This document shows positions 3,017-50,592 of a DNA stretch of 64,000 bases, piece by piece. The notes under the pieces were generated by a model, which worked only from the letters and a program-made list of their open reading frames with translations, was not told the origin of the DNA and searched no databases. Position 1 is the stretch's first letter, and each line of letters opens with the position of its first letter. Source of the DNA: Escherichia coli (lineage in GTDB: Bacteria > Pseudomonadota > Gammaproteobacteria > Enterobacterales > Enterobacteriaceae); the NCBI RefSeq assembly GCF_003334405.1, contig NZ_QOWM01000005.1; one strand, given 5' to 3'. The position numbers were made by a program, and so were the translations under genes.

Positions 3017-3029
3017 ATCAGAGTGAACT

Positions 3030-3233: not shown

Positions 3234-3243
3234 TGGAGAGAGC

Positions 3244-4200: not shown

Positions 4201-4210
4201 TTTTGGATGA

Positions 4211-5501: not shown

Positions 5502-5695
5502 CCGACGCCATTCATGGCCATATCAATGATTTTCTGGTGCGTACCGGGCTGAGAGGCGGTGTAAGTGAACTGTAGTTGCCATGTTTTACGGCAATGAGAG
5601 CAGAGATAGCGCTGATGTCCGGCAGTGCTTTTGCCGTTACGCACCACGCCTTCAGTAGCGGAGCAGGAAGGACATCTGATGGAAATGGAAGCCAC
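5420..5695 (-). CDS. insA: IS1 InsA
   Basis: 91 aa [43 protein letters not shown]... Confidence 0.9.
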
Positions 5696-5751
5696 GCAAG
5701 CACCTTAAAATCACCATCATACACTAAATCAGTAAGTTGGCAGCATTACCC

Positions 5752-5847
5752 GGATTCCATAATGATTCCACGCCCCGTTATGACAAATCTGCCGCCGATC
5801 TTGCCTGGCAAAGGACACTGAAATGGTTCGATAAATATCTCTCCTGA
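5752..5847 (+). pseudogene. 3' remnant of a dienelactone-hydrolase-like gene truncated by IS1
   Basis: Frame directly abutting the IS1 end reads [35 protein letters not shown], resembling the C-terminus of DLH-family hydrolases; only 31 codons. Confidence 0.3.
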
Positions 5848-5992
5848 TAGGTTTATCTCTTACGGGATTACGTCTTAAACAAGCATGAAAAAATAGCGTG
5901 CGCAAAAGTCGTTCTTTGCCTAAAATATCGCTATATATGGCGATATATAGCGAATAAAGTGAACGATGAATAACCATTTTGGTAAAGGCTTA

Positions 5993-7225
5993 ATGGCGGG
6001 ATTAAAAGCAACGCATGCCGCCACGCTGTTTTTCCCGATGGAGTTGATTTTGTATGATTTTGCCGCGTACCTGTCGACGGACCTGATTCAGCCGGGGATC
6101 ATTAATGTGGTCCGTGATTTTAATGCCGATGTCAGTCTGGCCCCGGCAGCCGTCAGTCTCTATCTCGCGGGCGGTATGGCGTTACAGTGGCTGCTGGGGC
6201 CGCTTTCCGACAGGATTGGCCGCAGGCCGGTGCTGATTACCGGGGCGCTAATATTTACCCTTGCCTGCGCTGCGACAATGTTCACAACGTCTATGACACA
6301 GTTTCTTATCGCGCGTGCAATTCAGGGCACCAGTATCTGTTTTATTGCCACCGTTGGTTATGTCACGGTGCAGGAGGCGTTCGGCCAGACAAAAGGGATC
6401 AGGTTGATGGCGATTATCACCTCCATCGTACTGATTGCGCCGATTATTGGCCCGCTTTCCGGCGCAGCTCTGATGCACTTTGTGCACTGGAAAGTCCTTT
6501 TTGCCATCATTGCGGTTATGGGGTTTATCTCATTTGTTGGCTTACTGCTGGCGATGCCAGAGACGGTGAAGCGCGGCGCGGTTCCATTTAGCGCCAAAAG
6601 CGTCTTGCGCGATTTTCGTAATGTCTTTTGCAATCGGCTGTTCCTCTTTGGCGCAGCAACCATCTCTTTAAGCTATATCCCAATGATGAGTTGGGTGGCT
6701 GTCTCGCCGGTGATCCTGATCGACGCGGGCGGCTTAACAACTTCGCAGTTCGCCTGGACACAGGTTCCGGTGTTCGGCGCGGTGATTGTCGCGAATGCCA
6801 TCGTGGCGCGTTTCGTTAAAGATCCAACCGAACCGCGCTTCATCTGGCGTGCCGTACCCATTCAACTGGTCGGCCTCGCGCTGTTGATTATCGGCAATCT
6901 GCTGTCACCGCACGTCTGGCTGTGGTCGGTGCTGGGCACCAGTTTGTATGCTTTCGGGATTGGTTTGATCTTCCCGACCTTATTCCGCTTTACGCTTTTT
7001 TCCAATAACTTACCGAAAGGGACCGTCTCCGCATCGCTGAATATGGTGATCCTGATGGTGATGTCTGTCTCGGTCGAAATCGGCCGCTGGCTGTGGTTTA
7101 ACGGCGGTCGCTTGCCGTTTCATCTGTTAGCCGTCGTGGCGGGCGTTATCGTCGTTTTCACCCTGGCAGGATTGCTTAATCGCGTGCGCCAACATCAGGC
7201 TGCCGAGCTGGCGGAGGAGCGGTGA
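5993..7225 (+). CDS. mdtM: MFS multidrug efflux transporter
   Basis: ORF 5966..7225; 12-TMS MFS protein recognisable as MdtM (YjiO); start chosen to give 410 aa. Confidence 0.85.
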
Positions 7226-8661: not shown

Positions 8662-11769
<3,108 letters not shown>

Positions 11770-11836
11770 CAGGCTGGCATATTTCACCTTTTTGTTATTA
11801 ACTTGTTAACAACAAAAATGACATACAAGGTTAAAC

Positions 11837-13015
11837 ATGCCTTCGTCCTCGCATCCCGTAGAACGCTTTTCTTTCAGCACCGCGCTTTTCGGGATGCTGG
11901 TTCTGACCTTAGGTATGGGATTAGGTCGCTTCCTTTATACGCCTATGTTGCCCGTCATGATGGCGGAAGGGGCGTTTTCATTTAGCCAGCTCTCGTGGAT
12001 TGCCAGCGGCAACTATGCGGGGTATCTGGCTGGCAGTCTGCTATTTTCGTTTGGCGCATTTCACCAGCCGTCGCGCCTGCGCCCATTTCTGTTGGTTTCT
12101 GCCCTGGCGAGCGGGTTGTTGATCCTCGCAATGGCATGGTTGCCGCCATTTATTCTGGTGTTATTGATTCGCTTCCTGGCGGGTGTCGCCAGCGCCGGTA
12201 TGCTGATTTTTGGTTCGACGCTGATTATGCAGCACACGCGCCATCCTTTTGTGCTGGCAGCTTTGTTTTCTGGCGTTGGCATTGGCATTGCACTGGGCAA
12301 CGAATATGTTCTGGCAGGCCTGCATTTTGCCTTCTCCTCGCAAACGTTATGGCAAGGCGCCGGGGCGCTTTCTGGCATGATGCTGATTGCACTTACGCTT
12401 TTAATGCCCTCGAAAAAACACGCCATCGCACCAATGCCATTGGCAAAAACGGAGCAACAGATAATGAGCTGGTGGTTACTGGCTATTCTGTACGGCCTGG
12501 CGGGATTTGGTTATATCATCGTCGCGACTTACCTGCCGCTCATGGCGAAAGATGCAGGCTCACCATTGTTAACCGCCCATCTCTGGACGTTAGTCGGCTT
12601 ATCAATTGTGCCAGGCTGCTTTGGCTGGCTATGGGCAGCAAAACGTTGGGGGGCTTTGCCTTGCCTGACGGCGAATTTGCTGGTGCAGGCTATCAGTGTG
12701 CTGCTTACTCTCGCCAGCGACTCTCCTCTCTTGCTTATCATTAGTAGTATCGGTTTTGGCGGTACCTTTATGGGCACGACATCTCTGGTGATGACTATCG
12801 CCCGCCAACTGAGCGTTCCGGGAAATCTCAATCTTTTAGGCTTTGTGACGCTCATTTACGGCATTGGACAAATCCTCGGCCCGGCGCTGACCAGTATGCT
12901 CGGCAATGGAACATCGGCGCTTGCCAGCGCCACTCTCTGCGGCGCGGCGGCGTTGTTTATTGCTGCGCTTATCAGCACAGTGCAATTATTTAAGCTACAA
13001 GTGGTCACTTCATGA
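11837..13015 (+). CDS. yjiJ: MFS-type transporter (DUF1228)
   Basis: 392 aa hydrophobic ORF. Confidence 0.8.
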
Positions 13016-13027
13016 GGGAAGTTTCCC

Positions 13028-13582
13028 TTACCACTCAAGAAACTCAACCGCAACCGTTGATGTCAGCCAGACCCCGTTTTCCGCTTGCCAGAAAGGGAGG
13101 CCTCGTTTCGCCATTTCCTGTGCTTTGACGGTTAAAATAACCGGCGATCCGTGTCTTGCTCCCACTTTGCGTGCCGTTGCTTCATCAGCAGAGAGATGTA
13201 CGTAGTGACGCTCACCTGCAATCAGCCCCTGTTTTTTTATCTCGTCAAGGAAACGGCTTGCCGTACCGTGGTAGAGAAACTGTGGCGGTGTTTTTTCGGC
13301 AAAGGAAATAGCGACCTGCGAAGTCGAATGCCCCTGAACCGCGCGGATGCACCTACCATCACTGGAATAACTAAAACGCTTTTTATCGCTGGTGGCAACC
13401 ACAGTATCCAGCAATGCACGGGTTAACCGCTTGCCCGCTTTTTGGGCACAAAGTATGAGCTTATCGATATCCGCCCATCCTTCACGGTCCAGTACGATAC
13501 CAATCGCCTCCGGTTTGTGTCGGAGGACAAAACTTAAAAACTTGCTCGTATCCGCCAGCTCTTTTTCGTTGTACTTTGCCAT
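13028..13582 (-). CDS. kptA: RNA 2'-phosphotransferase (Tpt1/KptA family)
   Basis: 184 aa [25 protein letters not shown]... with the family's HGT...R motifs. Confidence 0.9.
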
Positions 13583-13831
13583 CGCGTTTTCGTCCCTGGA
13601 TTATCTGTTTTTTATTTACTATGTCATTGTCACTGGGTTTATGAATTTTCTGCAACTCAATCCTGCGTAGAACCTTTTCCACACAGCGTAATTTTACCGC
13701 TATGCAAAAAACGCATAGTCAGAAACATACTTGCATTTTCCCCATACCCACATGGCTGATAAGGTTTTTCAGCTCCAGGAATTTTCCTGGCTCAAGCAAC
13801 ACACAAACACAAAAAAACAATGGGGATTGTT

Positions 13832-14515
13832 ATGACACAACAAGGGGATGCTGTAGCCGGGGAGCTGGCGACAGAAAAAGTGGGCATTAAAGGGTATCTG
13901 GCTTTTTTTCTCACCATAATCTTTTTTTCCGGTGTTTTTTCCGGGACAGACAGTTGGTGGCGCGTTTTTGATTTTTCCGTTCTGAACGGATCGTTTGGGC
14001 AACTGCCTGGTGCGAACGGAGCCACCACCTCGTTTCGCGGCGCGGGTGGCGCGGGGGCTAAAGATGGCTTTCTCTTTGCGCTGGAGCTGGCACCGTCAGT
14101 CATTCTCTCTCTGGGGATTATTTCAATTACCGATGGTCTTGGCGGATTACGCGCCGCGCAGCAGTTAATGACGCCAGTGCTAAAACCGTTGTTGGGCATT
14201 CCAGGGATCTGCTCGCTGGCGCTGATCGCTAACCTGCAAAACACCGATGCCGCCGCAGGTATGACCAAAGAGCTGGCGCAGGAAGGTGAAATTACCGAAC
14301 GCGATAAAGTGATTTTCGCCGCATATCAAACCAGCGGTAGCGCCATTATCACCAACTACTTCTCTTCCGGCGTCGCGGTGTTTGCCTTTCTGGGCACGTC
14401 CGTAATCGTACCTTTAGCAGTCATCCTGGTGTTTAAATTTGTCGGAGCCAACATTTTGCGCGTCTGGCTTAACTTCGAAGAACGTCGCAACCCAACGCAA
14501 GGAGCGCAAGCATGA
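13832..14515 (+). CDS. yjiH: membrane protein, nucleoside-recognition-domain family
   Basis: ORF 13820..14515 trimmed to MTQQGD for 227 aa; overlaps yjiG start. Confidence 0.75.
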   Translation: MTQQGDAVAGELATEKVGIKGYLAFFLTIIFFSGVFSGTDSWWRVFDFSVLNGSFGQLPGANGATTSFRGAGGAGAKDGFLFALELAPSVILSLGIISITDGLGGLRAAQQLMTPVLKPLLGIPGICSLALIANLQNTDAAAGMTKELAQEGEITERDKVIFAAYQTSGSAIITNYFSSGVAVFAFLGTSVIVPLAVILVFKFVGANILRVWLNFEERRNPTQGAQA

Positions 14516-14985: not shown

Positions 14986-16158
14986 ATGATTGATTATACC
15001 GCAGCCGGTTTTACCCTGCTGCAGGGAGCGCATTTGTATGCGCCGGAAGATCGGGGAATTTGCGATGTCCTCGTCGCTAACGGCAAAATTATCGCCGTTG
15101 CCAGTAATATCCCTTCTGACATTGTACCGGACTGCACGGTTGTCGATCTCAGCGGGCAGATCCTCTGCCCAGGTTTTATTGATCAACACGTCCATTTGAT
15201 TGGCGGTGGCGGCGAAGCAGGTCCCACGACGCGCACGCCGGAAGTGGCGTTAAGTCGTCTGACGGAAGCAGGCGTCACGTCAGTGGTTGGTCTGCTGGGC
15301 ACCGACTCTATCTCTCGCCACCCGGAATCCCTGCTCGCCAAGACCCGTGCGCTCAATGAAGAAGGCATCAGCGCCTGGATGCTGACCGGCGCTTATCATG
15401 TCCCTTCCCGCACTATTACGGGTTCCGTGGAAAAAGACGTGGCGATTATCGATCGCGTGATTGGCGTGAAATGCGCCATCTCTGATCACCGTTCTGCCGC
15501 ACCGGACGTTTATCACCTGGCTAATATGGCGGCGGAATCCCGCGTTGGCGGTTTGCTCGGCGGTAAACCTGGCGTCACCGTGTTCCACATGGGCGACAGC
15601 AAAAAGGCGTTACAGCCTGTCTATGACCTGCTGGAAAACTGCGATGTGCCGATTAGCAAGTTGCTGCCGACCCACGTTAACCGCAACGTTCCGTTGTTTG
15701 AGCAGGCGCTGGAGTTCGCGCGCAAAGGCGGCACCATCGATATCACCAGCAGCATTGACGAACCAGTCGCCCCTGCCGAAGGTATTGCCCGCGCCGTTCA
15801 GGCGGGTATTCCGCTGGCACGCGTCACCCTCAGCTCCGACGGCAACGGTAGCCAGCCGTTCTTCGATGACGAAGGGAATTTAACCCATATCGGTGTTGCC
15901 GGTTTTGAAACGTTGCTGGAAACCGTGCAGGTGCTGGTCAAAGATTATGATTTCAGTATCAGCGATGCCCTGCGCCCGCTCACCAGTAGCGTAGCCGGTT
16001 TCCTTAACCTGAGCGGGAAAGGCGAAATTCTGCCAGGCAATGACGCAGACTTACTGGTCATGACGCCAGAATTACGCATTGAGCAGGTATACGCTCGCGG
16101 CAAGCTGATGGTCAAAGACGGCAAAGCCTGCGTGAAAGGAACGTTTGAAACGGCATAA
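14986..16158 (+). CDS. iadA: isoaspartyl dipeptidase
   Basis: 390 aa amidohydrolase with HxH metal motif (DQHVHLIGGGGE). Confidence 0.9.
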   Translation: MIDYTAAGFTLLQGAHLYAPEDRGICDVLVANGKIIAVASNIPSDIVPDCTVVDLSGQILCPGFIDQHVHLIGGGGEAGPTTRTPEVALSRLTEAGVTSVVGLLGTDSISRHPESLLAKTRALNEEGISAWMLTGAYHVPSRTITGSVEKDVAIIDRVIGVKCAISDHRSAAPDVYHLANMAAESRVGGLLGGKPGVTVFHMGDSKKALQPVYDLLENCDVPISKLLPTHVNRNVPLFEQALEFARKGGTIDITSSIDEPVAPAEGIARAVQAGIPLARVTLSSDGNGSQPFFDDEGNLTHIGVAGFETLLETVQVLVKDYDFSISDALRPLTSSVAGFLNLSGKGEILPGNDADLLVMTPELRIEQVYARGKLMVKDGKACVKGTFETA

Positions 16159-16164
16159 ACGGTT

Positions 16165-16212
16165 GTCAGCCGCCCGAATGGACGTAGAATGCCCGCAAGG
16201 GCGGCTGACAGA
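16165..16212 (+). terminator. hairpin after iadA
   Basis: Inverted repeat gtcagccgccc ... gggcggctgac. Confidence 0.4.
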
Positions 16213-16222
16213 GTAAAACGTA

Positions 16223-17134
16223 ATGGATGACTGTGGTGCGGTTTTGCATAATATTGAAACTAAATGGCTTTATGATTTTCTGACCCTGGAAAAATGCCGC
16301 AATTTTTCCCAGGCAGCAGTCAGTCGCAACGTCTCGCAACCGGCATTCAGCCGCCGCATCCGTGCGCTGGAACAGGCGATTGGCGTTGAATTGTTTAACC
16401 GCCAGGTGACGCCGCTGCAACTCTCGGAACAAGGTAAAATATTCCATTCGCAGATCCGCCATCTGTTGCAACAGTTAGAGAGCAACCTTGCAGAACTCCG
16501 TGGTGGCAGCGATTACGCGCAACGCAAAATTAAAATAGCCGCTGCACACTCTCTTTCCCTCGGGCTGTTACCGTCCATTATCAGCCAGATGCCGCCGCTC
16601 TTTACCTGGGCAATTGAAGCTATTGATGTCGATGAAGCGGTCGATAAACTGCGTGAAGGGCAAAGTGACTGTATTTTTTCCTTTCACGACGAAGATTTGC
16701 TGGAAGCGCCGTTTGACCACATTCGCTTATTTGAATCTCAATTGTTCCCTGTCTGCGCCAGTGACGAACACGGAGAAGCACTTTTTAACCTCGCGCAGCC
16801 ACACTTTCCGTTACTGAATTACAGCCGCAACTCCTACATGGGGCGATTGATTAATCGCACCCTGACGCGCCACAGTGAGTTAAGTTTCAGCACCTTTTTT
16901 GTCTCTTCGATGAGCGAGCTTTTAAAGCAGGTTGCCCTCGACGGCTGTGGGATTGCCTGGCTGCCGGAGTACGCCATCCAACAAGAAATTCGCAGCGGGC
17001 AGCTCGTTGTACTGAATCGGGACGAACTGGTGATCCCGATTCAGGCCTATGCATACCGAATGAATACCCGCATGAATCCAGTTGCCGAACGCTTCTGGCG
17101 TGAACTGCGCGAGCTGGAGATTGTACTTAGCTGA
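16223..17134 (+). CDS. hypT: LysR-family transcriptional regulator (hypochlorite-responsive HypT)
   Basis: 303 aa, N-terminal LysR HTH. Confidence 0.85.
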
Positions 17135-17519
17135 CATTCTCGAGCGTCGCACTACGCCAACCGCCATTATCCCAGACCAGATCAAACGTTAGCGGTTCAT
17201 CGTCGTGGTACAGCATTATCTCAAGGCTGATCGCCAGCGTGTGGCTGTACGCTTCTTTCAGATTGACCTGCAACGCCGCAATCCGTGGCTCATGAAATAA
17301 CAGTGCAGAACGCAGCTGACGGCAATACCAGCTCTGGAGATGTTTGTCGCTCTGGTTATGCACTTGCCACTCGGGCATGCCTGAAACAAGTAATGACGGT
17401 AATGCCGAATGAGGAGAATTAAAAAGAGTGAGGAGATCGCTACATATTGATTTACGCAGCGATGACGTTTTATTGCCTGAAATTTCAGGTAAAACAGCCT
17501 GACGTGATTGGCGCATCAT
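17127..17519 (-). CDS. iraD: anti-adapter protein IraD
   Basis: ORF 17127..17528 trimmed to [12 protein letters not shown] for 130 aa. Confidence 0.8.
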
Positions 17520-18191
17520 TTTGCGCACTCCTGACGTTTAGCAACATATGCGGCTTGCCCTGAACACCGGGCACCACTGTATTGATGCTCATTTTCCATA
17601 GCCATTCCCTTTTGTTCATTACATCCATGTCAGTCTGAGACAGGCCTGAATCCTGTCAGCAAAGTATAAAACCTTACTTGCCTATGAATATCTACTGACT
17701 TTTCAGGAAAAAAGTCATGATTTGATAAAAATCATCAAACTCAAAAAAAAACCGCTAGTATATTCTGAATATTCCGAATAGTTACGTAGATGAAAATACT
17801 TGTCACCACCGCTACTTAATTCCGGTGTGAAATTATTTATTTCCGCATAATCAGCCATGTATTATTTGAAACAATTAGTTTGTAAATAATATAAATTGAT
17901 AACATATCAAATACATCAAAAATACCATTCACAGGCATTATTAATATAGACATCAATATAGCAACATCAAATTCCAATTAGTAATAAGATATGCTTTTAA
18001 ATTGCATGAAAATAATTTCAAATGAGCGTTTTTTGATACTTTAGAGTGTTTCCTACCCTTTAATATCACCGTGTAGAGTTGATATCACTACAACAGAAAC
18101 ATGCATGTCATTTGTTTACTTCTCATTTTACTACAGAAAAATTTATCTATTTTTCTAAACATCAGTGAAATACTCATAAAAGGTAACTATT

Positions 18192-39979: not shown

Positions 39980-40468
39980 TTACCAGTTGAAAGTGGGTAA
40001 ACCCGGCAGGCATTCAGCGCTGGCATCCAGATGAATGAGACTGACGCCATAACGTCGGGTAAGTGTGATAACCAGACGACGGAACGTTTTTGACAGCCCC
40101 AGGCGTTTAAGCCGCAGAACCGGATATGACCACGCATCGGTACGTAACAGATATCCGCTACCTGTGAAATGAATCCATTCTGATTCACCAACGTCACTGG
40201 TCTGATGCGACAGCGAGTACAGCCAGGCGTTATCCTTTTCCGTGATATGTGCGGTACTGCAGCGTATGCCGGCAAGGGTTGCAAACGGTGGTAGTGTGCA
40301 GGTTGACTGTTGGTCGGATTCCTCCACCACGCGGAGTGAATAACCGTTTTCAGCGACCTTGTTAATCAGTTCAGTGAGATTAACACCATCGACGTCAACG
40401 ACAATTCGCCCCATGTTCAGTGCCTGCACATTAATTCTGTCGGCTTCCAGCATCAGGGAAAGTTTCAT
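39980..40468 (-). CDS. YeeW-like (DUF5983-type) protein
   Basis: 162 aa, start overlaps the toxin gene stop by 4 nt. Confidence 0.45.
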
Positions 40469-40839
40469 CGTTTCTCCGGATGCTTACCCAGGGTAATGTT
40501 ATTTACCGTTCTGTAATTGTCGCGGGTCATCAGGCCGGTCGCCCTGCGAGCCCGGAGGATATCAATACTGTTTATTAACTGAGAGCGGGGACAAGTGCTG
40601 AATCCCGGCTGGTCGGTACGCACCAGCGCGTATTTTTCCACGAGAAAATTCACCGCATCACACAGTGAAATGCCAGCTTCAATATGCTGCTCAATCACAC
40701 GTTCATCGGCGAACGGTGTGTCATTCAGTGTAAGGCCGTAATGCTGGCCCAGTAGTCGGGAGAGCAGAGTCTGCCAGATGGTGACGGGAGACGGGCAGCT
40801 CGATGCCTCCCGTACGTGTGTATCGGGTAATGTTTTCAT
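40465..40839 (-). CDS. CbtA/YkfI/YpjF-family toxin
   Basis: 124 aa; [45 protein letters not shown] highly similar to recalled CbtA. Confidence 0.8.
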
Positions 40840-40928
40840 ACTGAAGGTTTTCCTGATATGCAGAGATGAAAAATGGAAAAGTGGCGTGGTGAAAGCACCA
40901 GGCCGGAGCAGAAGGTTATTCCGGTGGT

Positions 40929-41297
40929 TTACTTTTTCGTTTCGGGCGTCGGATAAACAGCCAGATAAACGTAACCACCGCTACCGAGAGTGTCAGCTTT
41001 GCAGGTCAGACCTTTTGCATACAGCGTGACGGTATGCTGATGGCGGGGATTCAGTTCACCGCTGGTGAGCATGAGTTCCAGTTGTTTCATCAGCAGCGGA
41101 AAGGCCTGGTCCAGGTGGTACGCATCTGCATCGCTGAACAGGCCTCTGATACCGGCGCGGTCGGCAAGGTAATGCAGGCGGTTACCCTCCTGCACCAGAC
41201 GGGCGCCGAAACAGGGCGTCACTGTGCAGGGTAGTCTCCACCAGGGATGGTCGTCATTGTCATCGGGATGCGTTGTCCCGGAAAGTGTGTCTGACAC
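40929..41297 (-). CDS. CbeA/YeeU-family antitoxin
   Basis: ORF 40929..41405 trimmed to GTG start (VSDTLSGTT...) for 122 aa; [34 protein letters not shown]. Confidence 0.8.
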
Positions 41298-41459
41298 GAT
41301 AAAATCCTCACAGAAAATCGGTGAATGATAGTTTAACGATGACGGGTCAGCCGGCGCGCAGACCGGCTTCGGTAAAGGTGTATTCGTTGATGAGCAGGAC
41401 CTCATCCACAGCGGCGTCTGAGCTCAGCCAGTCGTACTCGTTTTCCGGGTGACGGAACA

Positions 41460-41681
41460 TCAGTTCAGGGTGACGCTCATCAGCCGGACATACGGACCAA
41501 AACTGTCCTTACGGCGTTCTGCAAACACGGCCAGCACACCGGGAATATCCTGCACTTCACGACCGGTATACGCTTCAGCACTGCCGTGCCAGCGGTATTT
41601 GCCGGTACAGAACGGAAAAAGACGGGATGCCGGATGCTGACGGTGAATACGCATGGCTTCGCCACGGGTGATGATTTTCAT
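41460..41681 (-). CDS. YeeT-like (DUF987) protein
   Basis: 73 aa MKIITRGEAMRIHRQHPASRLFPFCTGKYRWHGSAEAYTGREVQDIPG... Confidence 0.65.
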   Translation of the reverse strand: MKIITRGEAMRIHRQHPASRLFPFCTGKYRWHGSAEAYTGREVQDIPGVLAVFAERRKDSFGPYVRLMSVTLN

Positions 41682-42149
41682 AGTGGGATACCTCTGAAGA
41701 CAGAAGATAAAAGTGAAAACAGGTGTGATGTGGTTGTGACGGGTTAAAGCAGACCATGTTCGGCAAAGGAGAAAACCTGGCTGCCACCGACTATCAGATG
41801 GTCCGGCACCCGGATAGCTGGAGGTACCGTCATGAGAGTTGAGCAGAATAATTTCAGGGACATGTTCTCCGTTTATCTCTCCGGCCCGCCGCAGACGCAG
41901 CATGTGTTTTGTGTATCCCCGGCGGCCCGGGTCGCGCACACGGGTCTGGCAGGCGAAGAATGGCTGAAAGCCTTCCCGCTGCAGGCTTTCCAGTACGGTG
42001 ATGGTGGGGATGTACGTATAGTTCTGGCTTCGGGACGTGTGTTTATCTTCCCCGAAAATCCCCGGCACATAGTGCATCAGTTCTTCGTGTGTCAGCGGAC
42101 GGTCACGGCGTATCTGGTTCGCATAACCAAAACGACTGGCTAGTCGCAT
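41682..42149 (-). pseudogene. 5' fragment of a DUF932-like (YfjQ-type) gene, frameshifted and fused in-frame to the yeeT-like ORF
   Basis: First ~120 codons of ORF 41460..42149 (MRLASRFGYANQIRRDRPL...LLNSHDGTSSY) look DUF932-like, then lose resemblance. Confidence 0.4.
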
Positions 42150-42560
42150 AATTTGCTCCTTATCGGTGGTTAAGATTTACTGGTGTAATAAATGAAAAAG
42201 CCACGTCTCCCGGAGAAGACGCGGCCTGATGGGTGAAATGAATGACGTTTATTGTCTGAGAAGACCGTCACTGGCGAGCCGCGTATTAAGCACCTTTCCG
42301 GCATCGGGTTCAGAATTCCGGCAGCGCCAGCGTCGCTGACCTTCCGCGTTGCGGATAACCCGACGGAAATGCATTCCCGGGTCATCCTGGATAAACACAT
42401 TGCGGTAAGCGGTTATGACAGCAACCGCCTGCCCGTATGAGAAAGATCCTTCAGCCAGGACATACTCTGTGTAACCCGGCATATCTGTTTTCTCCTGATA
42501 AATAAAAAGCCTCTGCCACGCGTTGTGACAGAGGCTGAAGCATGAAACTGACTTCAGGGA

Positions 42561-43016
42561 TCAGTTAACGTTTTTTCCGGAAACGGTAATCAGCAGTGGA
42601 TGGTAGTCCTGGGGATTGAAAACCGATAACGGCAGACTGACACGATGGCCGTTACTTTCTTCAGTTGCTTTGATGATTTCGGTTGTGGCGACATTTTCCA
42701 CGCACTCCGTTTCCAGAAATGCGTCTGTGGTTCGCGTGGCATTACTGTCACCAAAAGCTTCCGTTTCCATTTTTCTGGTCACCAGCGTCTGACCATATTT
42801 GTCTTTGAGTTGCAGAGTGATGGTGAGGGGGCCAAATCCTTCATCGTTTCCGCCATTATCCAGCCGGAACTGGTAAGCACAAATATTTCCCGGGAGCCAT
42901 ATCGTATCTGTATTGCGTATACTGATGTAACGTTGATCCTGTGCCCGGAGTGGGGCAGACCACGTTAACCCCAGAATGAAGGCGGTAATCATGCAGGTTT
43001 TGAACAGGTGAATCAT
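42561..43016 (-). CDS. hypothetical secreted protein
   Basis: 151 aa with N-terminal signal-peptide-like hydrophobic segment ending ...APLRAQ. Confidence 0.45.
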   Translation of the reverse strand: MIHLFKTCMITAFILGLTWSAPLRAQDQRYISIRNTDTIWLPGNICAYQFRLDNGGNDEGFGPLTITLQLKDKYGQTLVTRKMETEAFGDSNATRTTDAFLETECVENVATTEIIKATEESNGHRVSLPLSVFNPQDYHPLLITVSGKNVN

Positions 43017-43091
43017 GGTATTTACCTCTCTGAGTCATGACGATGACACTGACAAATCAGGTGATAAAGCGTAAAAGGCGCAGAATAGCCG

Positions 43092-44057
43092 TTATGCCGG
43101 TAACTCCGGGGGTAATGCTTCTTCCAGTCGGTTAACCATATTGCCGAGATGGGATGCATCATATTCCATGACGGGGCGTTGCCTGATGATACTGACCACC
43201 AGTGGTTTGATTAACATATTGGTCGCGGCCCGTTGTTGTATACCGGCGGCGAAAATGATCTCCAGAGCATTCTGATCGATAACACGGGCCAGATTCTCGT
43301 TCAGATTTTCAATCTCATGTCCGGTCAGCAGGAAACTGCCGGCAAGCCATGTCACCTGCTCCTGAATCATTGCCAGAATTTTGACGCGATCTTCTTCAAC
43401 CAGCGCTCCGGCAATTTTTCCTGATACAGCGGAGGCAATCATTCCCCCCAGAACACCGCCAACCACACGCCCTGTCAGTGCACCAAATGGTCCCAGTGGA
43501 CTGAACAGTATTCCGCCCGCCACTGACCCGACAGCACCACCTGCCACACCGGAAGATGCCACGGCAAGATTCCTGATGAACTGCGTACCGGAGATCCGTC
43601 CCCGCAACATTTTGATCATGTCAGGGCCGGTTGTGACAGCTACCAGTGCCAGAGATGTCACCAGCGTACCCTTCATCACTTTGTTCAGGGCACTGATATT
43701 TCCTGCACCGGTCCCCTTCTGAAGAGCCAGTCGAACAGTCGGGCTGGCAGTCGAAAAATCAATGTGCTTCAGCATACCCTGAACAACACTGAGCCGGTGG
43801 AGTTGCTGGGTTGTGACGTAGACAGCCAGTGTGCGGGTGAAGGTTTTTCCTGCCTGGACAGCAGCTGTCTGCAGGGCAGCATCGCGATCGCCGGTGCTGA
43901 GCCAGAAGACCGATGCCGTCAGGGCAAAACTGATCCCTCCGGCCGCCAGACTGACAACCGAACCCTCGGCAATATCATAAGTGACCGATTCGATGGTCCC
44001 GAACCGGGTGATATTACGGGCCTGAGTATAAGTCAGATGAGCCATACACGCGGCTTC
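43092..44057 (-). pseudogene. C-terminal fragment of an unidentified glycine-zipper-rich island protein, fused in-frame to a truncated IS66 tnpC
   Basis: Last ~320 codons of ORF 43092..45068; [41 protein letters not shown]; unlike IS66 TnpC C-termini. Confidence 0.35.
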
Positions 44058-45950
44058 CGTTATTCTGCCGGATTCGTATAACGCCCGGTAACCACCGTAA
44101 GCATCGGCCTGAAGCACACCGCTGTAACCGGCCAGGTGATTTTGTGGATGGATACCTTTCCGGTCCGGACTGTACGCGAACCAGACCGCCGGGGGCATCT
44201 GTGAACCGGCGTTACGGTCATCACGGACGTAGACCCACAGCCGGGCTGTCCGGGTTTTACCGCTGCCCGGCTCCTGGACCGGGACGGGGATATCATCAGC
44301 ATGGACTTTACCGGGCATCAGCACATACTGGCGCAGGACGTCATACAGCGGCTCCAGCAGTTCAGCAACAGCACCTGTCCAGCGCCCCAGTGTGGCACGG
44401 CTCAGCTCCACTCCCTGACGACGGTATATTTCTGACTGGCGGTATAACGGCAGATGGTCTGCATATTTCCCGGTGACAACATGGGCCAGAAGCCCCGCTC
44501 CGGCATAACTGCGTGCAATGGGTTTTGAAGGTACTGGTGCCTGCACGATATGGTCGCACCGGCAACAGGCCTGTTTCGGACGTTGTGTTTCGATAACCTT
44601 AAAGGCGCTGCTGATAAGCTCCAGTTGCTCTGACACATCACATCCCAGAGAACTGAGTTCACCACCACAGGCAGGACAGCATTCCTCTTCCGGCCGGATA
44701 ACCCGGGTTTCACGGGGAAGTGAGGCCGGTAACGGTTTACGGGCTGAAGACTGGCGCAGGGCGGATGGCAGTACCGGGTCATATTGCTCACCCAGCGTTT
44801 CCGCCATTTCTTCCTGAAGTGCGCTGATTCGCTCCTGTGCTTCCTGTATCTGCCGTTCGGTTTTTGCACGAAGTTTTTCTGAGCTTTTACCGAACTGCAT
44901 ACGTTGCAGTTTCGCAACCAGCGCCTTCAGCCGGTTGATTTCGGAAGCATAAGCCGCCACCCGCTGTGAGAGCAGGCGGTTGTATTCAGCCATCTGGCGG
45001 ATGGTGTCCTGTTGCGTCTGCAACAGTGCCCGCAGGCGGGCGTTCTCATGAGCAAGTGAGGTGTCCATATCCTCACTTTACAACGGGTTATATGCGGATT
45101 CCAGCGCGTTCCGTTCGTTTCGGGTGCTTCCAGTTGATACCTTCAAGAAGCATGGATAACTGAGCCGGAGTAAGGTGCACCTTGCCGTCACGGGTGACTG
45201 GCCAGACGAAGCGGCCCCGCTCCAGGCGTTTGGTGAAGAGGCACAGTCCGTCACTGTCAGCCCACAACACTTTTATCTGGTCACCCCGGCGTCCGCGGAA
45301 GATGAACAGGTGTCCGGAGAACGGGTCATCCTTCAGGACGTTCTGAACTTTTGATGCCAGGCCGTTAAAGCCATTTCGCATATCGGTGATACCTGCAACC
45401 AGCCAGATACGCGAACCTGCAGGGAGAGATATCATCAGTGGCTGCTCCCTTTTATTTCGCGGATAAGTGTCTGTAATAACGCCGGCGTCAGTTTACCTTT
45501 AAGCCTGAGAGTTCCGGCCGGCAGAACCAGCTCACAACACAGACTGTCGGACGGTGTATTTATCTGCTCTGGTTCCTGTGCGGGGGCCGGGATTTTATTA
45601 TCCGGCTCCGGCGTTAACGTCACGGGAAGCAGTGCCGGCATATTTTTTCCGGAAGGCAGCAGGCCACCTTTCCGGTATTGATGGCGCCAGTTGAAGAGCA
45701 GGTTATCGTTGATTCCGTTTTCCCGGGCGATCTGCGCCACACAGGCTCCGGGCTGCAGTGACTGCTCCACTAAGGCGATTTTAAACTCATAAGGGAAGTT
45801 GGGCCGCCGGGGACGTTTTTTTACCACGGGGGCTTCGGATATAACGGTGCTTTCAGGACGTACGACTGGTACCGTGGAAAATTGTCCGTAACCCTCAGTA
45901 TCAGCTGTGAGGTAACGTTCCGGCACGGGACGCTCCGCTTCAATGGCAAT
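44058..45950 (-). mobile_element. IS66-family element, copy 1, truncated at the tnpC 3' side
   Basis: tnpA-like (45435..45926), tnpB (45088..45435; WLVAGITDMRNGFNGL) and first ~337 codons of tnpC (CCPACGG zinc-finger, through EAACMAHL); boundaries approximate. Confidence 0.65.
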
Positions 45951-47811
45951 GTCAGCGAAAAGCTCCTGACTCTGCTGATACAGGAACTGAAGCGATGATC
46001 CCGTTACCTTCCGGGACCAAAATTTGGCTGGTTGCCGGTATCACCGATATGAGAAATGGCTTCAACGGCCTGGCTGCGAAAGTACAAACGGCGCTGAAAG
46101 ACGATCCCATGTCCGGCCATGTTTTCATTTTCCGGGGCCGCAGCGGCAGTCAGGTTAAACTGCTGTGGTCCACCGGTGACGGACTGTGCCTCCTGACCAA
46201 ACGGCTGGAGCGTGGGCGCTTCGCCTGGCCGTCAGCCCGTGATGGCAAAGTGTTCCTTACGCAGGCGCAGCTGGCGATGCTGCTGGAAGGTATCGACTGG
46301 CGACAGCCCAAGCGGCTGCTGACCTCCCTGACCATGCTGTAAATCTCTTTATCCTGGTTGTCACAGAATAAGCCCGGTAAAATACGGGCTTATGAACGAC
46401 ATCTCTTCTGACGACATCTTCCTGCTAAAACAGCGCCTGGCCGAACAGGAAGCGCTGATCCACGCCCTGCAGGAAAAGCTGAGCAACCGGGAGCGCGAAA
46501 TAGACCATCTGCAGGCGCAGCTGGATAAACTCCGCCGGATGAACTTCGGCAGTCGTTCCGAAAAAGTCTCCCGCCGTATCGCACAAATGGAAGCCGATCT
46601 GAACCGGCTTCAGAAAGAGAGCGATACGCTGACTGGTAGGGTGTATGACCCGGCAGTACAGCGTCCGTTGCGTCAGACCCGCACCCGTAAGCCGTTCCCT
46701 GAATCACTACCCCGTGACGAAAAGCGACTGTTGCCTGCGGCGCCGTGCTGCCCGAACTGCGGCGGTTCACTGAGCTATCTGGGCGAGGATACCGCCGAAC
46801 AGCTGGAGTTGATGCGTAGCGCATTCCGGGTTATCCGGACGGTACGGGAAAAACATGCCTGTACTCAGTGCGATGCCATCGTGCAGGCACCTGCACCTTC
46901 GCGGCCCATCGAGCGGGGTATCGCCGGACCGGGGCTGCTGGCCCGCGTGCTGACCTCGAAGTATGCAGAGCACACCCCGCTGTATTGCCAGTCAGAAATA
47001 TACGGCCGGCAAGGTGTGGAGCTGAGCCGTTCACTGCTGTCAGGCTGGGTGGATGCATGCTGCCGGCTGCTGTCTCCGCTGGAAGAGGCGCTTCATGGCT
47101 ATGTCATGACTGACGGCAAACTCCATGCCGATGATACCCCGGTCCAGGTACTGCTGCCGGGTAATAAGAAGACGAGGACCGGGCGGTTGTGGGCGTATGT
47201 TCGTGATGACCGCAATGCCGGGTCAGCGTTGGCACCTGCAGTGTGGTTCGCTTACAGCCCGGACAGAAAAGGCATCCATCCGCAGACTCATCTTGCTTGC
47301 TTCAGCGGTGTGCTGCAAGCGGATGCGTACGCCGGGTTCAACGAGCTGTATCGCAATGGTGGGATAACGGAAGCTGCCTGCTGGGCTCATGCCCGCCGAA
47401 AGATCCACGATGTGCACGTCCGCATCCCGTCAGCACTGACGGAAGAAGCCCTGGAGCAGATCGGTCAGTTGTACGCCATAGAGGCGGATATAAGGGGAAT
47501 GCCGGCAGAGCAGCGGCTTGCTGAACGTCAGCGAAAAACGAAACCGCTGTTGAAATCCCTGGAAAGCTGGTTGCGTGAAAAGATGAAGACCCTGTTCTTC
47601 GGCTCTGGCCATGGTGGTGAGCGGGGAGCGCTACTGTACAGCCTGATCGGGACGTGCAAACTGAATGACGTGGATCCAGAAAGCTACCTTCGCCATGTGC
47701 CTGGCGTCATAGCAGACTGGCCGGTCAACCGGGTCAGCGAACTGCTTCCGTGGCGCATAGCACTGCCAGCTGAATAACACATCCCCGTCAATACGGCCCT
47801 CGCTGTACGCT
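45951..47811 (+). mobile_element. IS66-family element, copy 2, lacking most of tnpA
   Basis: tnpA C-terminal tail (...EKLLTLLIQELKR), tnpB 45995..46342, tnpC 46392..47777 (461 aa), terminal GTAAGCG-type end at about 47805-47811; TnpB only ~75% identical to copy 1. Confidence 0.65.
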
Positions 47812-48015
47812 TACTTTTGTTCGGACTGCTTATGGCCTTTTTCCACTGGTGTAGCAGGAAAGTTAACCGGCTGCCACCATGAGATGACGTGTAAACCGTG
47901 CAGGCATGTTTTCACGTGGTGACGCTTTCATTGGGGGTCTACGCCGGAACCCCAATATTGTTCACATACATGAATTTGAAAAACTAAGCGATACTGCTGT
48001 CCGTACCTTATAAAC

Positions 48016-49374
48016 TTATTTCAACGCTTCCGGCAGCGTCACAATCCACAGTTCACTGTCAGACTCCGGTTTCTCCAGTGGCTTCACTCTGAGGGTCGTT
48101 TCAACCTGCTTGTCGTCAAGCGTCAGCTTTCCTTCCGCGTTCACCCGATAATCCTTGAATGTCTTGCCCTCGACCGGATGTTGCATCGCCACCTTCACGC
48201 CAAAGTCGTTATCGTTCGCCACCGCCAGCGTTTTGCTGTCGATCAGCGCCAACCCTTCAGCCTTCTCCTGCTGCCAGCCCAAGGAGCGCAGATCAACAAC
48301 CTGCGTTTTCTGCGCAAGGGTAATGCCGCGCTGTGACAGGGTTTTCTCATCATCAAACTCCGGATACTCACCCGGCTTGTCGAAGCCTGACAGGTCGCTC
48401 GCCTTATTGAGATCGACCTCGTAAATCAGGTTACGCATTCTGTTGTTTTTATCTCTTCCCTGTTCGATCAGCAGGATGTGCTGGTTATCGAGCGCCACGA
48501 TGTCTCCGATTTTAGCGTCGCTGTTTTTGCTGTAGGCCGCGCTGTCGATAGGATAACCGTACATCGCGGTTTTTCCGCTTGCCGGATCGAAGCTCACCAG
48601 ACGCGTAAACAGCGCCTTTTTCTTGCTCTTAGCGTCGATATCCAGCGTACTTTGCACGGCGACAATAATACGCCCGTCCGGCATACGGGTGAGGCCTTCA
48701 AAGCCGCGGTTCGCCTGACGCCATTTGAGGATATTTGGCAAACCGCCCGCAATCGCTTTTTCCCCTTCCGCCGCCTGCGGACCGTGGATTGCCAGGATTT
48801 TCCCTTTACTGTCGATGTTAATCAGGAACGGGCCATACTCATCGCACAGCCAGTAACCTCCTTTACCATCCGGAGTGATCCCTTCCGTATCCAGCCCGCG
48901 ATTATCCCCCTTCAGTCTATGTAACGTGTCGCTGAAGGCCACTTCATTGGTGGAGCCAATCACGTCGCTTGCCAGCGGCAGACCGTTGATCGCGCCTTTA
49001 TCGTCATGCAGAGGACGAGGATCGATGGCCTCCGCTTTGCCGTTTTGTACACGAATCGTCATCAGCAGCGGCGCGAAATCTGGCGTAACGAAAATTTTAG
49101 TTTCGTTTTTCCCCTCTTTCGGTGAATCCGCGTTCGGACCGCGATCGGTAATGGTTGCGAATGTCAGGGCATCGCCCTGTTTACCGGTGAACAGCAGGCC
49201 AGAACCTATCCCAACCGGAAGGCCGTTCGGGAATGCACTGGCAAATGCGCCGGCGTAGTTCACGTGCGTGCCTTCTGGAAAACTGACGACATAGCGCTCA
49301 GCCGTAGGTTGTGCCGCCAGGGCAGAGAAAGAGAGCGTACAACCGATTAGCACGGGAATAATTTTTCTTTTCAT
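48016..49374 (-). CDS. secreted phytase-like (esterase-like-activity-of-phytase family) protein
   Basis: ORF 48016..49389, start at MKRKIIPVLIGCTLSFSALAA signal peptide; repeated beta-propeller-like segments. Confidence 0.45.
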   Translation of the reverse strand: MKRKIIPVLIGCTLSFSALAAQPTAERYVVSFPEGTHVNYAGAFASAFPNGLPVGIGSGLLFTGKQGDALTFATITDRGPNADSPKEGKNETKIFVTPDFAPLLMTIRVQNGKAEAIDPRPLHDDKGAINGLPLASDVIGSTNEVAFSDTLHRLKGDNRGLDTEGITPDGKGGYWLCDEYGPFLINIDSKGKILAIHGPQAAEGEKAIAGGLPNILKWRQANRGFEGLTRMPDGRIIVAVQSTLDIDAKSKKKALFTRLVSFDPASGKTAMYGYPIDSAAYSKNSDAKIGDIVALDNQHILLIEQGRDKNNRMRNLIYEVDLNKASDLSGFDKPGEYPEFDDEKTLSQRGITLAQKTQVVDLRSLGWQQEKAEGLALIDSKTLAVANDNDFGVKVAMQHPVEGKTFKDYRVNAEGKLTLDDKQVETTLRVKPLEKPESDSELWIVTLPEALK

Positions 49375-49637
49375 ATTGTTAGCATCCATAAAGTGAAGAT
49401 CACACTACACCATAAAGAAGAAACGAGTCAGGAAAATGACATCGAATGGCAACATGCGCGGGCCTGAGGCCAAAGAAATGTAAAACACTGTTGTTATTTG
49501 TAACAACGGAAACATTTACGGAAATTATTTGTCTTTCTTCGTGATCAAAAATGCTGTGTCTTGTTGGATTGGAGTGATGAGGGCTGCGTTTAGGAAACGC
49601 CCTATATTGTACGGTTGCATTATCGCGGTAGGGGTAA

Positions 49638-49790
49638 TGCACGTGTCAGTATGATGAGCTGACCACACTCACGTGGGTGGACTGGTATAACAATCGACGA
49701 TTGCTGGAAAGGCAGGGCCATATCCCACCGGCAGAAGCAGAAAAAGCTTATTATGCTTCCATCGGAAACGATGATCTGGCAGCCTGAGTT
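49638..49790 (+). pseudogene. 3' remnant of an IS3-family transposase (integrase-core C-terminus)
   Basis: Frame reads ...WVDWYNNRRLLERQGHIPPAEAEKAYYASIG...stop, the conserved W-x-x-WYN-x-R-R-x-H...PAE transposase tail with no upstream part. Confidence 0.4.
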
Positions 49791-50013
49791 CACAGATAAA
49801 ACACTCTCCAGGAAACCCGGGGCGGTTCACTTAGCCGCGTGTCCATTATTGCTGGATAAGATCAGTCAATAATAGCAGACCAACCACATCATGAGTCATT
49901 CTGACCGACACATGCCAGAAGCAGAGGCTCCATCCCATTTTATACCTACCTTATAACACTTAGAAAAACAACATGTTAAAAATGTCTATTGGAAACAATT
50001 TTATTTCCAATTG

Positions 50014-50032
50014 TAATGATAACCATTCTCAT
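50014..50032. promoter_or_regulatory. Fur box upstream of fecI
   Basis: taatgataaccattctcat versus Fur consensus GATAATGATAATCATTATC. Confidence 0.6.
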
Positions 50033-50074
50033 ATTAATATGACTACGTGATAATTAACTTTTGATGCACTCCGC

Positions 50075-50592
50075 ATGTCTGACCGCGCCACTACCACAGC
50101 TTCCTTAACGTTCGAGTCGCTTTATGGCACACATCACGGCTGGTTGAAAAGCTGGCTGACGCGCAAACTCCAGTCTGCTTTTGATGCAGATGACATTGCC
50201 CAGGACACTTTTTTGCGGGTAATGGTCAGCGAAACGCTCTCGACGATCCGCGATCCTCGCTCCTTCCTCTGCACTATCGCCAAACGCGTGATGGTGGACC
50301 TGTTTCGCCGAAACGCGCTGGAAAAAGCGTATCTGGAGATGCTGGCGCTTATGCCGGAGGGGGGAGCGTCTTCACCTGAGGAACGCGAAAGCCAACTCGA
50401 GACCCTACAACTCCTCGACAGCATGCTGGACGGGCTAAACGGCAAAACACGTGAAGCGTTTCTGCTTTCGCAACTGGATGGTCTGACATACAGCGAGATT
50501 GCGCACAAACTCGGTGTTTCCATCAGCTCCGTGAAAAAATACGTGGCGAAAGCCGTCGAGCACTGCCTGCTGTTCCGTCTGGAGTATGGGTT

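What the first reader, a model, noticed from the sequence alone, without database searches (positions are those of the whole stretch)
43092..47811. Two different, mutually truncated IS66-family elements head-to-head, one fused in-frame to a glycine-zipper protein fragment
Copy 1 (minus strand) has tnpA, tnpB and only the first ~337 codons of tnpC, which continue without a stop into ~320 codons of an unrelated glycine-rich sequence. Copy 2 (plus strand) starts with only the last ~14 codons of tnpA followed by tnpB and a 461 aa tnpC. The TnpB proteins differ by about a quarter of residues, so these are distinct elements, not an inversion of one. The 658 aa chimeric ORF could be expressed.
Basis: seen in the sequence. 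Interest (0 to 1): 0.4.

Follow-up and report, generated by a model that had tools for sequence, protein, structure and literature searches.

The report
Deletion-scarred IS66 remnants fused to yeeR
Two dead insertion sequences (ISCro1 and ISEc8) in a very variable E. coli genomic island were cut down by small-homology deletions, one of which joined half a transposase gene in-frame to the tail of the yeeR gene; this is ordinary genome decay, not a new system.

Summary
It describes a decay product.

- **Copy 1** (44037-45891, minus strand) is 100% identical to ISCro1 but keeps only nt 275-2129 of 2699. Both inverted repeats are gone. tnpA is 5'-truncated, tnpB is intact, and tnpC stops at codon 344 of 523.
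- **Copy 2** (45890-47814, plus strand) is ISEc8 nt 365-2442. It keeps its right inverted repeat and carries a 153-bp in-frame deletion in tnpC, giving 461 aa instead of 512.
- **Age of copy 2.** This defective ISEc8, with the same right flank, is found in 2162 of 5426 complete E. coli genomes, so it is an old fixed fossil.
- **The glycine-rich part.** It is residues 524-838 of the 838-aa YeeR protein of the published agn43-yeeR-irmA operon, 99-100% identical.
- **The junctions.** Both lie inside genes, share only 2-3 bp, and have no IS end or target duplication. I infer illegitimate-recombination deletions. The one at 44037-44039 removed agn43 and the yeeR 5' part, about 12 kb judged from an intact island.
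- **A third deletion.** A similar one lies at 41815/41816.
- **Distribution.** The exact locus occurs in at least four independent public assemblies and in none of the complete genomes.
- **Function.** Neither remnant can transpose. I found no evidence that the 658-aa chimera is expressed or functional.

The parts
43092..45068 (-). 658-aa chimeric ORF: ISCro1 TnpC residues 1-344 fused in-frame to YeeR residues 524-838
   Evidence: ORF list. BLASTP 344/344 to ISCro1 TnpC and 312/315 to the 838-aa YeeR-type protein. Pfam and NCBIfam show a truncated IS66 transposase.
43092..44039 (-). 3' fragment of yeeR (codons 524-838 plus stop). It contains the glycine-zipper-like stretch, chimera residues about 496-560.
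   Evidence: 100% DNA identity to O26:H11 11368 L003 6593-7540 and to ETEC1747 L013 up to 13693. Eight GxxxG motifs and 23% Gly in residues 496-560. Pfam hits are only sub-threshold: C19orf12 E 0.009-0.02, Gly-zipper_Omp E 0.1.
44037..44039 (.). Junction A: 3-bp microhomology (ATG on the + strand) between the yeeR interior and the ISCro1 tnpC interior
   Evidence: Three-way comparison of window, L003 and L001. The junction is absent from 5426 complete E. coli genomes.
44037..45891 (-). ISCro1 remnant (nt 275-2129 of the 2699-bp element). Both terminal inverted repeats are missing.
   Evidence: 100% identical over 1855 bp to ISCro1 copies in E04, 21AR0173 and DA33133. ISCro1 ends were defined in L001 at 3431-6129 and in DA33133 with the 8-bp duplication ATTCAACC.
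45088..45435 (-). ISCro1 tnpB, intact (115 aa)
   Evidence: NCBIfam IS66_TnpB, E 5e-38, full model
45435..45926 (-). 163-aa ORF containing 5'-truncated ISCro1 tnpA (codons 74-225). Its first 11 codons run into antisense ISEc8 sequence.
   Evidence: BLASTP against the 225-aa TnpA of E04. NCBIfam matches model positions 68-189 of 190 only.
45890..45891 (.). Junction B: 2-bp microhomology (AA) joining the ISCro1 tnpA interior to the ISEc8 tnpA interior. One deletion removed both left ends.
   Evidence: 782 bp are missing relative to E04 and 2691 bp relative to DA33133. No complete genome has the junction in one piece.
45890..47814 (+). ISEc8 remnant (nt 365-2442 of 2442, with an internal 153-bp deletion). 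The left inverted repeat and most of tnpA are missing.
   Evidence: 99.1-99.3% identical to ISEc8 reconstructed from APEC17
45891..45998 (+). Last 35 codons plus stop of ISEc8 tnpA
   Evidence: The translation matches the C-terminus of the 126-aa TnpA of E04
45995..46342 (+). ISEc8 tnpB, intact (115 aa)
   Evidence: NCBIfam IS66_TnpB, E 3e-35
46392..47777 (+). ISEc8 tnpC with an in-frame 51-codon deletion (461 aa instead of 512)
   Evidence: The deletion lies inside Pfam DDE_Tnp_IS66, residues 175-461 of the intact protein. NCBIfam splits the match into two stretches.
47591..47595 (+). Site of the 153-bp internal deletion in tnpC, between 5-bp direct repeats CCTGT
   Evidence: Comparison with intact ISEc8 in L010
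47793..47814 (+). Right terminal inverted repeat of ISEc8 (ACGGCCCTCGCTGTACGCTTAC), the only IS end left in the region
   Evidence: Inverted-repeat pair I12 in E04. The sequence is seen in the window. The ISEc8 match ends at 47814.
47817..47894 (+). Remnant of a DUF6404 gene flanking ISEc8 (context)
   Evidence: RefSeq annotation of E04 (L001 8565-8642), carried over through the 99.4% alignment
42561..43016 (-). irmA, intact, immediately downstream of the chimeric ORF (context)
   Evidence: RefSeq 'IrmA family protein' under a 100% match. Pfam PF18673 in identical public contigs.

Best explanation
The region is a set of deletion scars in the hypervariable CP4-44-like island that lies between the nan genes and the fec operon of E. 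coli.

**Shown**
- An old, already defective ISEc8 with a 153-bp in-frame deletion in tnpC sits next to a phytase-like esterase gene in about 40% of complete E. coli genomes.
- In some lineages an ISCro1 lies nearby in the opposite orientation.
- In the window's lineage one deletion (junction B, 2-bp overlap) removed the left ends of both elements and whatever lay between them.
- A second deletion (junction A, 3-bp overlap) runs from ISCro1 tnpC codon 344 to yeeR codon 524. It removed the ISCro1 right end, agn43 and the yeeR 5' part. It happened to be in-frame, which creates the 658-aa ORF.

**Inferred**
- The deletions arose by microhomology-mediated illegitimate recombination (replication slippage or end-joining), not by transposase action.
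- Both remnants are immobile. Copy 1 has no inverted repeat and copy 2 has one. No intact TnpA or TnpC is encoded.
- The chimeric ORF is a by-product without a selected function.
- The main biological effect is loss of Ag43 and full-length YeeR, and separation of irmA from the OxyR/Dam-controlled agn43 promoter.
For: **Identity of the pieces**
- The ISCro1 part is 100% identical over 1855 bp.
- The ISEc8 part is about 99.2% identical.
- The yeeR part is 100% identical in DNA to O26 and ETEC1747 copies. K-12 YeeR equals residues 1-507 of the same 838-aa protein.

**Junctions**
- Resolved to the base, the overlaps are ATG, AA and TA. None lies at an IS terminus.

**Ancestral-type structures at the same locus**
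- ETEC1747 carries irmA, yeeR (838 aa), agn43, GTPase, then further genes, an ISCro1-like element, further genes, ISEc8, phytase and fecI. The equivalent interval there is 12.1 kb.
- In DA33133 and SHP24 ISCro1 and ISEc8 lie head-to-head around the Gp2 and zinc-ribbon genes. In DA33133 ISCro1 has an intact 8-bp duplication.
- In E04 the two elements are 144 bp apart.

**Age and reality**
- The defective ISEc8 plus its right flank is in 2162 of 5426 genomes.
- The window's exact structure is in at least 10 public contigs. Two NCBI assemblies and two independently assembled sequencing runs are 100% identical over up to 14 kb, so it is real and lineage-specific.

**Published background**
- agn43-yeeR-irmA is an operon, and the K-12 yeeR is a deletion product (PMC4807369).
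- IS disruptions and deletions are frequent in flu-yeeR (PMC9431211).
Against: - No complete genome holds the immediate ancestor. The size and content of the deleted DNA are therefore inferred from related, not identical, islands. The ISCro1-like element of ETEC1747 is only 95% identical.
- Nothing here tests expression. The ORF keeps the native tnpC start and Shine-Dalgarno-like sequence.
- No terminator-like site lies on the minus strand between the phytase-like gene and the ORF. Read-through transcription is therefore possible.
- The fragments are undecayed, at 100% identity. That fits a recent event but cannot exclude maintenance by selection.
Confidence: 0.9

Rival explanations
1. The chimeric ORF is expressed and does something. 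One version: a membrane-tethered, catalytically dead TnpC fragment, with leucine zipper, zinc finger and half a DDE domain, binds ISCro1 ends and damps transposition of other copies. Another version: its transcription drives irmA.
For: - The ORF is in-frame and undecayed, and keeps the native tnpC translation start.
- The N-terminal DNA-binding-type domains are complete.
- The YeeR tail has hydrophobic glycine-zipper-like segments.
- No terminator-like site lies upstream on the minus strand as far as the phytase-like gene.
- irmA lies 75 bp downstream.
Against: - The promoter-bearing left end of ISCro1 is deleted.
- No promoter-like site was found on the minus strand.
- An in-frame outcome is expected in 1 of 3 random deletions.
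- All carriers are 100% identical over 14 kb, so they are clonal and give no evidence of selection.
- The junction is absent from 5426 complete genomes.
- Neighbouring deletions of the same kind produced similar accidental ORFs.
Confidence: 0.05
2. The deletions were made by transposase or IS-associated activity rather than by transposase-independent illegitimate recombination. Candidates are IS-adjacent deletion or IS-excision-enhancer-type events starting at an IS that has since been lost.
For: - The locus is crowded with IS elements in relatives: IS600 in yeeR in O26, IS2, IS3 remnants, ISEc43.
- E04 shows an ISCro1-adjacent deletion whose end lies exactly at the IS terminus.
Against: - None of the three junctions in the window coincides with an IS terminus.
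- No IS sequence or target duplication is left at any of them.
- Only 2-3 bp of shared sequence is present at each.
Confidence: 0.08
3. The structure is an assembly artefact: a chimeric join of repeats.
For: IS66-family repeats are a common cause of misassembly. The junctions are absent from complete RefSeq genomes.
Against: - The same 14 kb is found at 100% identity in two NCBI assemblies and in two independently assembled sequencing runs.
- The junctions lie in unique combinations of sequence, with continuous reading across them.
Confidence: 0.01
4. It is one IS66 element partly inverted, or the glycine-rich tail is a normal part of this TnpC subfamily. These are the first reader's own refutation conditions.
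For: None found.
Against: - The TnpB proteins are 76% identical, and the DNA of the two copies is 68-78% identical.
- Intact ISCro1 TnpC is 523 aa with an ordinary IS66 C-terminus.
- The tail is 99-100% identical to YeeR residues 524-838.
Confidence: 0.005

Closest known systems
ISCro1 (IS66 family), as annotated by NCBI PGAP in E. coli genomes
   Same: Window 44037-45891 is 100% identical to 1855 bp of ISCro1 copies in E04, DA33133 and 21AR0173. The tnpA-tnpB-tnpC order is the same.
   Different: Only nt 275-2129 of 2699 remain. Both inverted repeats, the first 73 tnpA codons and the last 179 tnpC codons are gone. There is no target duplication.
ISEc8 (IS66 family)
   Same: About 99.2% identical to the 2442-bp ISEc8 of APEC17. 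The right inverted repeat, tnpB and the tnpC frame are kept.
   Different: It lacks nt 1-364 (the left repeat and 91 of 126 tnpA codons) and 153 bp inside the DDE domain of tnpC. The internally deleted version is a fixed copy at this locus in 2162 of 5426 genomes.
agn43-yeeR-irmA operon and its known disruptions (Moriel et al. 2016, PMC4807369; PMC9431211)
   Same: The glycine-rich part is the yeeR 3' end, followed by irmA exactly as in the operon. The papers report IS disruptions and deletions in flu-yeeR, and a deletion-truncated yeeR in MG1655.
   Different: Here the complementary part of yeeR survives: residues 524-838, whereas K-12 keeps 1-507. It is fused to a transposase fragment, and agn43 with its promoter is absent.
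Truncated transposase derivatives that inhibit transposition, such as the Tn5 inhibitor protein (from my own knowledge; relevant only to the minority reading)
   Same: The chimera keeps the N-terminal, presumably DNA-binding and multimerising, domains of a transposase without a complete catalytic domain.
   Different: No evidence of expression or activity. It arose by accidental deletion and is fused to a membrane-protein tail.

Membership tests
IS66 family, copy 1 (ISCro1) | Three genes in the order tnpA, tnpB, tnpC | tested here: met
   NCBIfam IS66_access_TnpA, IS66_TnpB and transpos_IS66 hits occur in that order on the minus strand. tnpA and tnpC are partial.
IS66 family, copy 1 (ISCro1) | Terminal inverted repeats (GTAAGCG... 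type) at both ends | tested here: not met
   The remnant corresponds to nt 275-2129 of 2699. The ends seen in E04 and DA33133 are absent from the window.
IS66 family, copy 1 (ISCro1) | 8-bp target-site duplication | tested here: not met
   Both borders are internal deletion junctions. An intact copy in DA33133 has ATTCAACC on both sides.
IS66 family, copy 1 (ISCro1) | Complete DDE transposase TnpC | tested here: not met
   Pfam DDE_Tnp_IS66 positions 1-156 of 284 only, and 344 of 523 residues.
IS66 family, copy 2 (ISEc8) | Terminal inverted repeats at both ends | tested here: not met
   The right repeat is present at 47793-47814. The left repeat and the first 364 nt are deleted.
IS66 family, copy 2 (ISEc8) | Complete tnpA, tnpB and tnpC | tested here: not met
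   tnpA keeps 35 of 126 codons. tnpB is intact. tnpC lacks 51 codons inside the DDE domain.
IS66 family, copy 2 (ISEc8) | 8-bp target-site duplication | tested here: not met
   The right flank is TTTTGTTC. In relatives with an intact left end the left flank is AAATAGTG. An unrelated intact ISEc8 in APEC17 has TTCTATTG on both sides.
[quoted passage not shown] | Sequence identity over the full length, and position between agn43 and irmA | tested here: not met
   Only residues 524-838 are present, at 99-100% identity. irmA follows, but agn43 and residues 1-523 are absent.
Glycine-zipper domains (Pfam Gly-zipper_Omp PF13488, C19orf12 PF20721) | Significant profile match | tested here: inconclusive
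   E 0.1 and 0.009-0.02, below the usual thresholds. A GxxxG-rich stretch with 8 motifs in 65 residues is visible.

The most novel reading that the evidence does not exclude
The TnpC(1-344)-YeeR(524-838) chimera is transcribed by read-through from the phytase-like gene. It would yield a membrane-anchored protein with the DNA-binding region of a transposase and no complete catalytic domain. Such a protein could act in trans on other ISCro1 copies, for example as a transposition inhibitor. Alternatively, its transcript could supply a new way of expressing irmA after loss of the agn43 promoter.
Probability: 0.04. Interest if true: 0.3.

Novelty: already known. Interest (0 to 1): 0.08.

Why it matters
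It matters little beyond annotation.

- It shows that a long, clean-looking ORF in this island is a transposase-yeeR pseudogene fusion and should not be annotated as a functional gene.
- It shows that the 461-aa 'IS66 family transposase' found at this locus in thousands of E. coli genomes is an internally deleted fossil.
- For strain biology, the relevant point is that this lineage has lost agn43 and full-length yeeR while keeping irmA. This may change how the vaccine-candidate protein IrmA is regulated.
- The locus also gives a compact example of three microhomology deletions within 4 kb.

Tried and rejected
- **Search for the structure in complete genomes.** No genome has either junction. 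The records listed as covering at least 80% are stitched from separate pieces.
- **Single inverted element.** Rejected on TnpB and DNA divergence.
- **Glycine-rich tail as a TnpC domain.** Rejected.
- **Transposition-generated borders.** I looked for IS ends and target duplications at the junctions and found none.
- **Origin from the nested ISEc8::ISCro1 composite** seen in APEC17 and on plasmids. This is less parsimonious. Copy 2 carries the locus-specific 153-bp deletion and the conserved right flank, and relatives at this locus have ISCro1 outside ISEc8.
- **Pfam and NCBIfam on the 838-aa YeeR.** No significant family.
- **Rfam on 40000-50500.** Nothing.
- **Promoter and terminator scan.** No support for a promoter on the coding strand.
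- **The listing of cluster members.** Failed twice because the queue was full. The distribution rests on the look-up of encoding contigs instead.
- **Literature.** The search on IS66 catalytic residues gave nothing usable, and the IS679/IS66 paper is not held. I therefore make no claim about which catalytic residue is lost.
Full report
**1. What is in the sequence**

The ORF list shows these genes on the minus strand:
- a 658-aa ORF at 43092-45068
- a 115-aa ORF at 45088-45435
- a 163-aa ORF at 45435-45926

On the plus strand it shows:
- a 115-aa ORF at 45995-46342
- a 461-aa ORF at 46392-47777

NCBIfam names them IS66 transposase, IS66 TnpB, IS66 TnpA (partial), IS66 TnpB and IS66 transposase. 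In the 658-aa ORF, Pfam finds LZ_Tnp_IS66, zf-IS66 and only positions 1-156 of 284 of DDE_Tnp_IS66. Nothing significant matches beyond residue 345.

**2. Identity of the pieces**

Megablast against 5426 complete E. coli genomes splits the region into three blocks.

- **Block 1, window 42500-44039.** It is 100% identical to irmA plus the 3' end of the gene upstream of it in O26:H11 11368, ETEC1747 and many others.
  - That gene encodes an 838-aa protein when intact.
  - K-12 YeeR (510 aa) equals its residues 1-507.
[quoted passage not shown] It notes that MG1655 yeeR is a deletion product (PMC4807369).
  - The chimera's residues 344-658 match YeeR residues 524-838 at 312/315.
- **Block 2, window 44037-45891.** It is 100% identical to ISCro1 copies (E04, DA33133, 21AR0173).
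  - With the element's ends defined at L001 3431-6129, 2699 bp, the window holds nt 275-2129 in standard orientation.
  - It keeps TnpC residues 1-344 of 523, an intact tnpB, and TnpA residues 74-225 of 225.
- **Block 3, window 45890-47814.** It is about 99.2% identical to ISEc8. I reconstructed that element as 2442 bp from APEC17, where an ISCro1 is nested in it.
  - The window holds nt 365-2442: the last 35 tnpA codons, tnpB, tnpC and the right inverted repeat at 47793-47814.
  - tnpC lacks 153 bp between two CCTGT repeats. This removes 51 residues inside the DDE_Tnp_IS66 domain of the 512-aa protein.

The two TnpB proteins are 76% identical.

**3. The junctions**

- **Junction A (44037-44039)** shares ATG between the yeeR interior and the tnpC interior.
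- **Junction B (45890-45891)** shares AA between the ISCro1 tnpA interior and the ISEc8 tnpA interior.

Neither lies at an IS terminus and neither has a target duplication. A third junction of the same type (TA, 41815/41816) lies 2 kb to the left. It removed 1443 bp relative to O26:H11 11368.

I read all three as microhomology-mediated illegitimate-recombination deletions. This is an inference from junction anatomy. An IS-associated mechanism whose IS has since been lost cannot be excluded.

**4. The locus in other genomes**

The region lies between nanM/nanS' and the fec operon, and it is extremely variable.

| Strain | Order at the locus |
|---|---|
| ETEC1747 | most complete form: irmA, yeeR (838 aa), agn43, GTPase, YfjI, further genes, an ISCro1-like element, ISEc43, Gp2, two zinc-ribbon genes, ISEc8 remnant, DUF6404', phytase-like gene, further genes, fecI |
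| DA33133 and SHP24 | ISCro1 and the defective ISEc8 head-to-head around Gp2 and the zinc-ribbon genes; in DA33133 ISCro1 has an intact 8-bp duplication |
| E04 | the two elements 144 bp apart |
| O26 strains | IS600 inserted in yeeR and no ISCro1 |
| JNEC-KY180 | 100% identical to the window in all shared parts; a complete-ended defective ISEc8 abuts a truncated DUF932 gene |

- The interval in ETEC1747 that corresponds to deletion A is 12.1 kb.
- The defective ISEc8, with the 153-bp deletion, its right end and 146 bp of flank, is present in 2162 of 5426 genomes. It is an old, fixed, immobile copy.
- The window's own arrangement is in none of the complete genomes.
- It is found at 100% identity over up to 14 kb in at least four independent public assemblies, and 10 contigs were read in all. 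It is real and belongs to one lineage.

**5. What it does**

Most likely nothing as an element.

- Copy 1 has no inverted repeat and copy 2 has one.
- No intact TnpA or TnpC is encoded.
- The promoter-bearing left ends of both elements are gone.

The 658-aa ORF keeps the native tnpC start. There is no promoter-like site on its strand, and there is no terminator-like site between it and the upstream phytase-like gene. A strong terminator-like hairpin follows irmA. Read-through expression is therefore possible but unsupported.

An in-frame result is expected for one deletion in three. The neighbouring deletion produced a similar accidental 229-aa DUF932'-yeeT ORF. The fragments are undecayed because the events are recent, so their intactness says nothing about selection.

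The likely biological consequence is loss of Ag43 and full-length YeeR. irmA is also uncoupled from the OxyR/Dam-controlled agn43 promoter that drives it in CFT073 and EC958 (PMC4807369). Strain 042 uses a promoter in the yeeR-irmA spacer (PMC9431211), and that spacer is retained here.

**6. Comparison with what is known, and verdict**

Both elements are known insertion sequences. The glycine-rich part is a known, uncharacterised gene. Frequent IS insertions and deletions in flu-yeeR-irmA are already published (PMC9431211).

As they stand, the remnants fail the defining tests of a functional IS66-family element: two inverted repeats, a target duplication and an intact TnpC. They are unmistakably derived from members of that family.

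Nothing here is new in kind. The interest is low and lies in annotation hygiene and in the possible effect on irmA regulation.

Noticed in passing
window 41460-42149 (-), junction at 41815/41816: A third microhomology deletion (TA overlap) removed 1443 bp relative to O26:H11 11368: part of the JAB/yeeS gene, the antirestriction gene and the 3' part of DUF932. It creates a 229-aa read-through ORF that joins a DUF932 N-terminus, about 45 out-of-frame codons and a full yeeT (DUF987).
   Followed up: partly
window 46392-47777; junction 47591-47595: The 461-aa 'IS66 family transposase' that PGAP annotates as tnpC is an ISEc8 TnpC with a 51-codon in-frame deletion between CCTGT repeats. With the same right flank it is present in 2162 of 5426 complete E. 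coli genomes, so it is a fixed fossil IS.
   Followed up: yes
L010 (APEC17) 806-5954; also hits H11-H25, including plasmids: At other loci ISCro1 and ISEc8 are again head-to-head because ISCro1 is nested inside the left end of an intact ISEc8. The inner duplication is GGCGAAAA and the outer one is TTCTATTG. The similar hit spans on several chromosomes and plasmids suggest that this nested composite has spread as a unit.
   Followed up: partly
L004 (K-12 MG1655) yeeR compared with L002 10233-12749: K-12 YeeR (510 aa) is the N-terminal 507 residues of an 838-aa protein. The window keeps only the complementary C-terminal 315 residues. The full-length protein matches no Pfam or NCBIfam family.
   Followed up: partly
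L011 (JNEC-KY180) 10977-13967 compared with window 41460-47814: A complete genome that is 100% identical to the window in all shared parts has a different deletion at this locus. A truncated DUF932 gene abuts a complete-ended defective ISEc8, with no irmA, yeeR fragment or ISCro1. It shares the short phytase-fecI spacing of the window. The two look like alternative outcomes from one ancestor.
   Followed up: no
L001 (E04) 6130-6273 and L009 (DA33133) 16130-18182: In E04 ISCro1 has no target duplication. It abuts the last 144 bp of the spacer that in DA33133 holds the Gp2 and two zinc-ribbon genes. This is an IS-adjacent deletion ending exactly at the ISCro1 terminus, unlike the window's junctions.
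   Followed up: partly
window 47815-47822 and L009 18175-18182: The fixed defective ISEc8 has no matching 8-bp target duplication, even where both ends are intact (left AAATAGTG, right TTTTGTTC). This suggests an old rearrangement at one of its ends.
   Followed up: no
window 42561-43091: irmA and the 75-bp yeeR-irmA spacer are intact, but agn43 and its OxyR/Dam-regulated promoter are absent from the locus. irmA expression here would depend on the spacer promoter described for strain 042 or on read-through.
   Followed up: no
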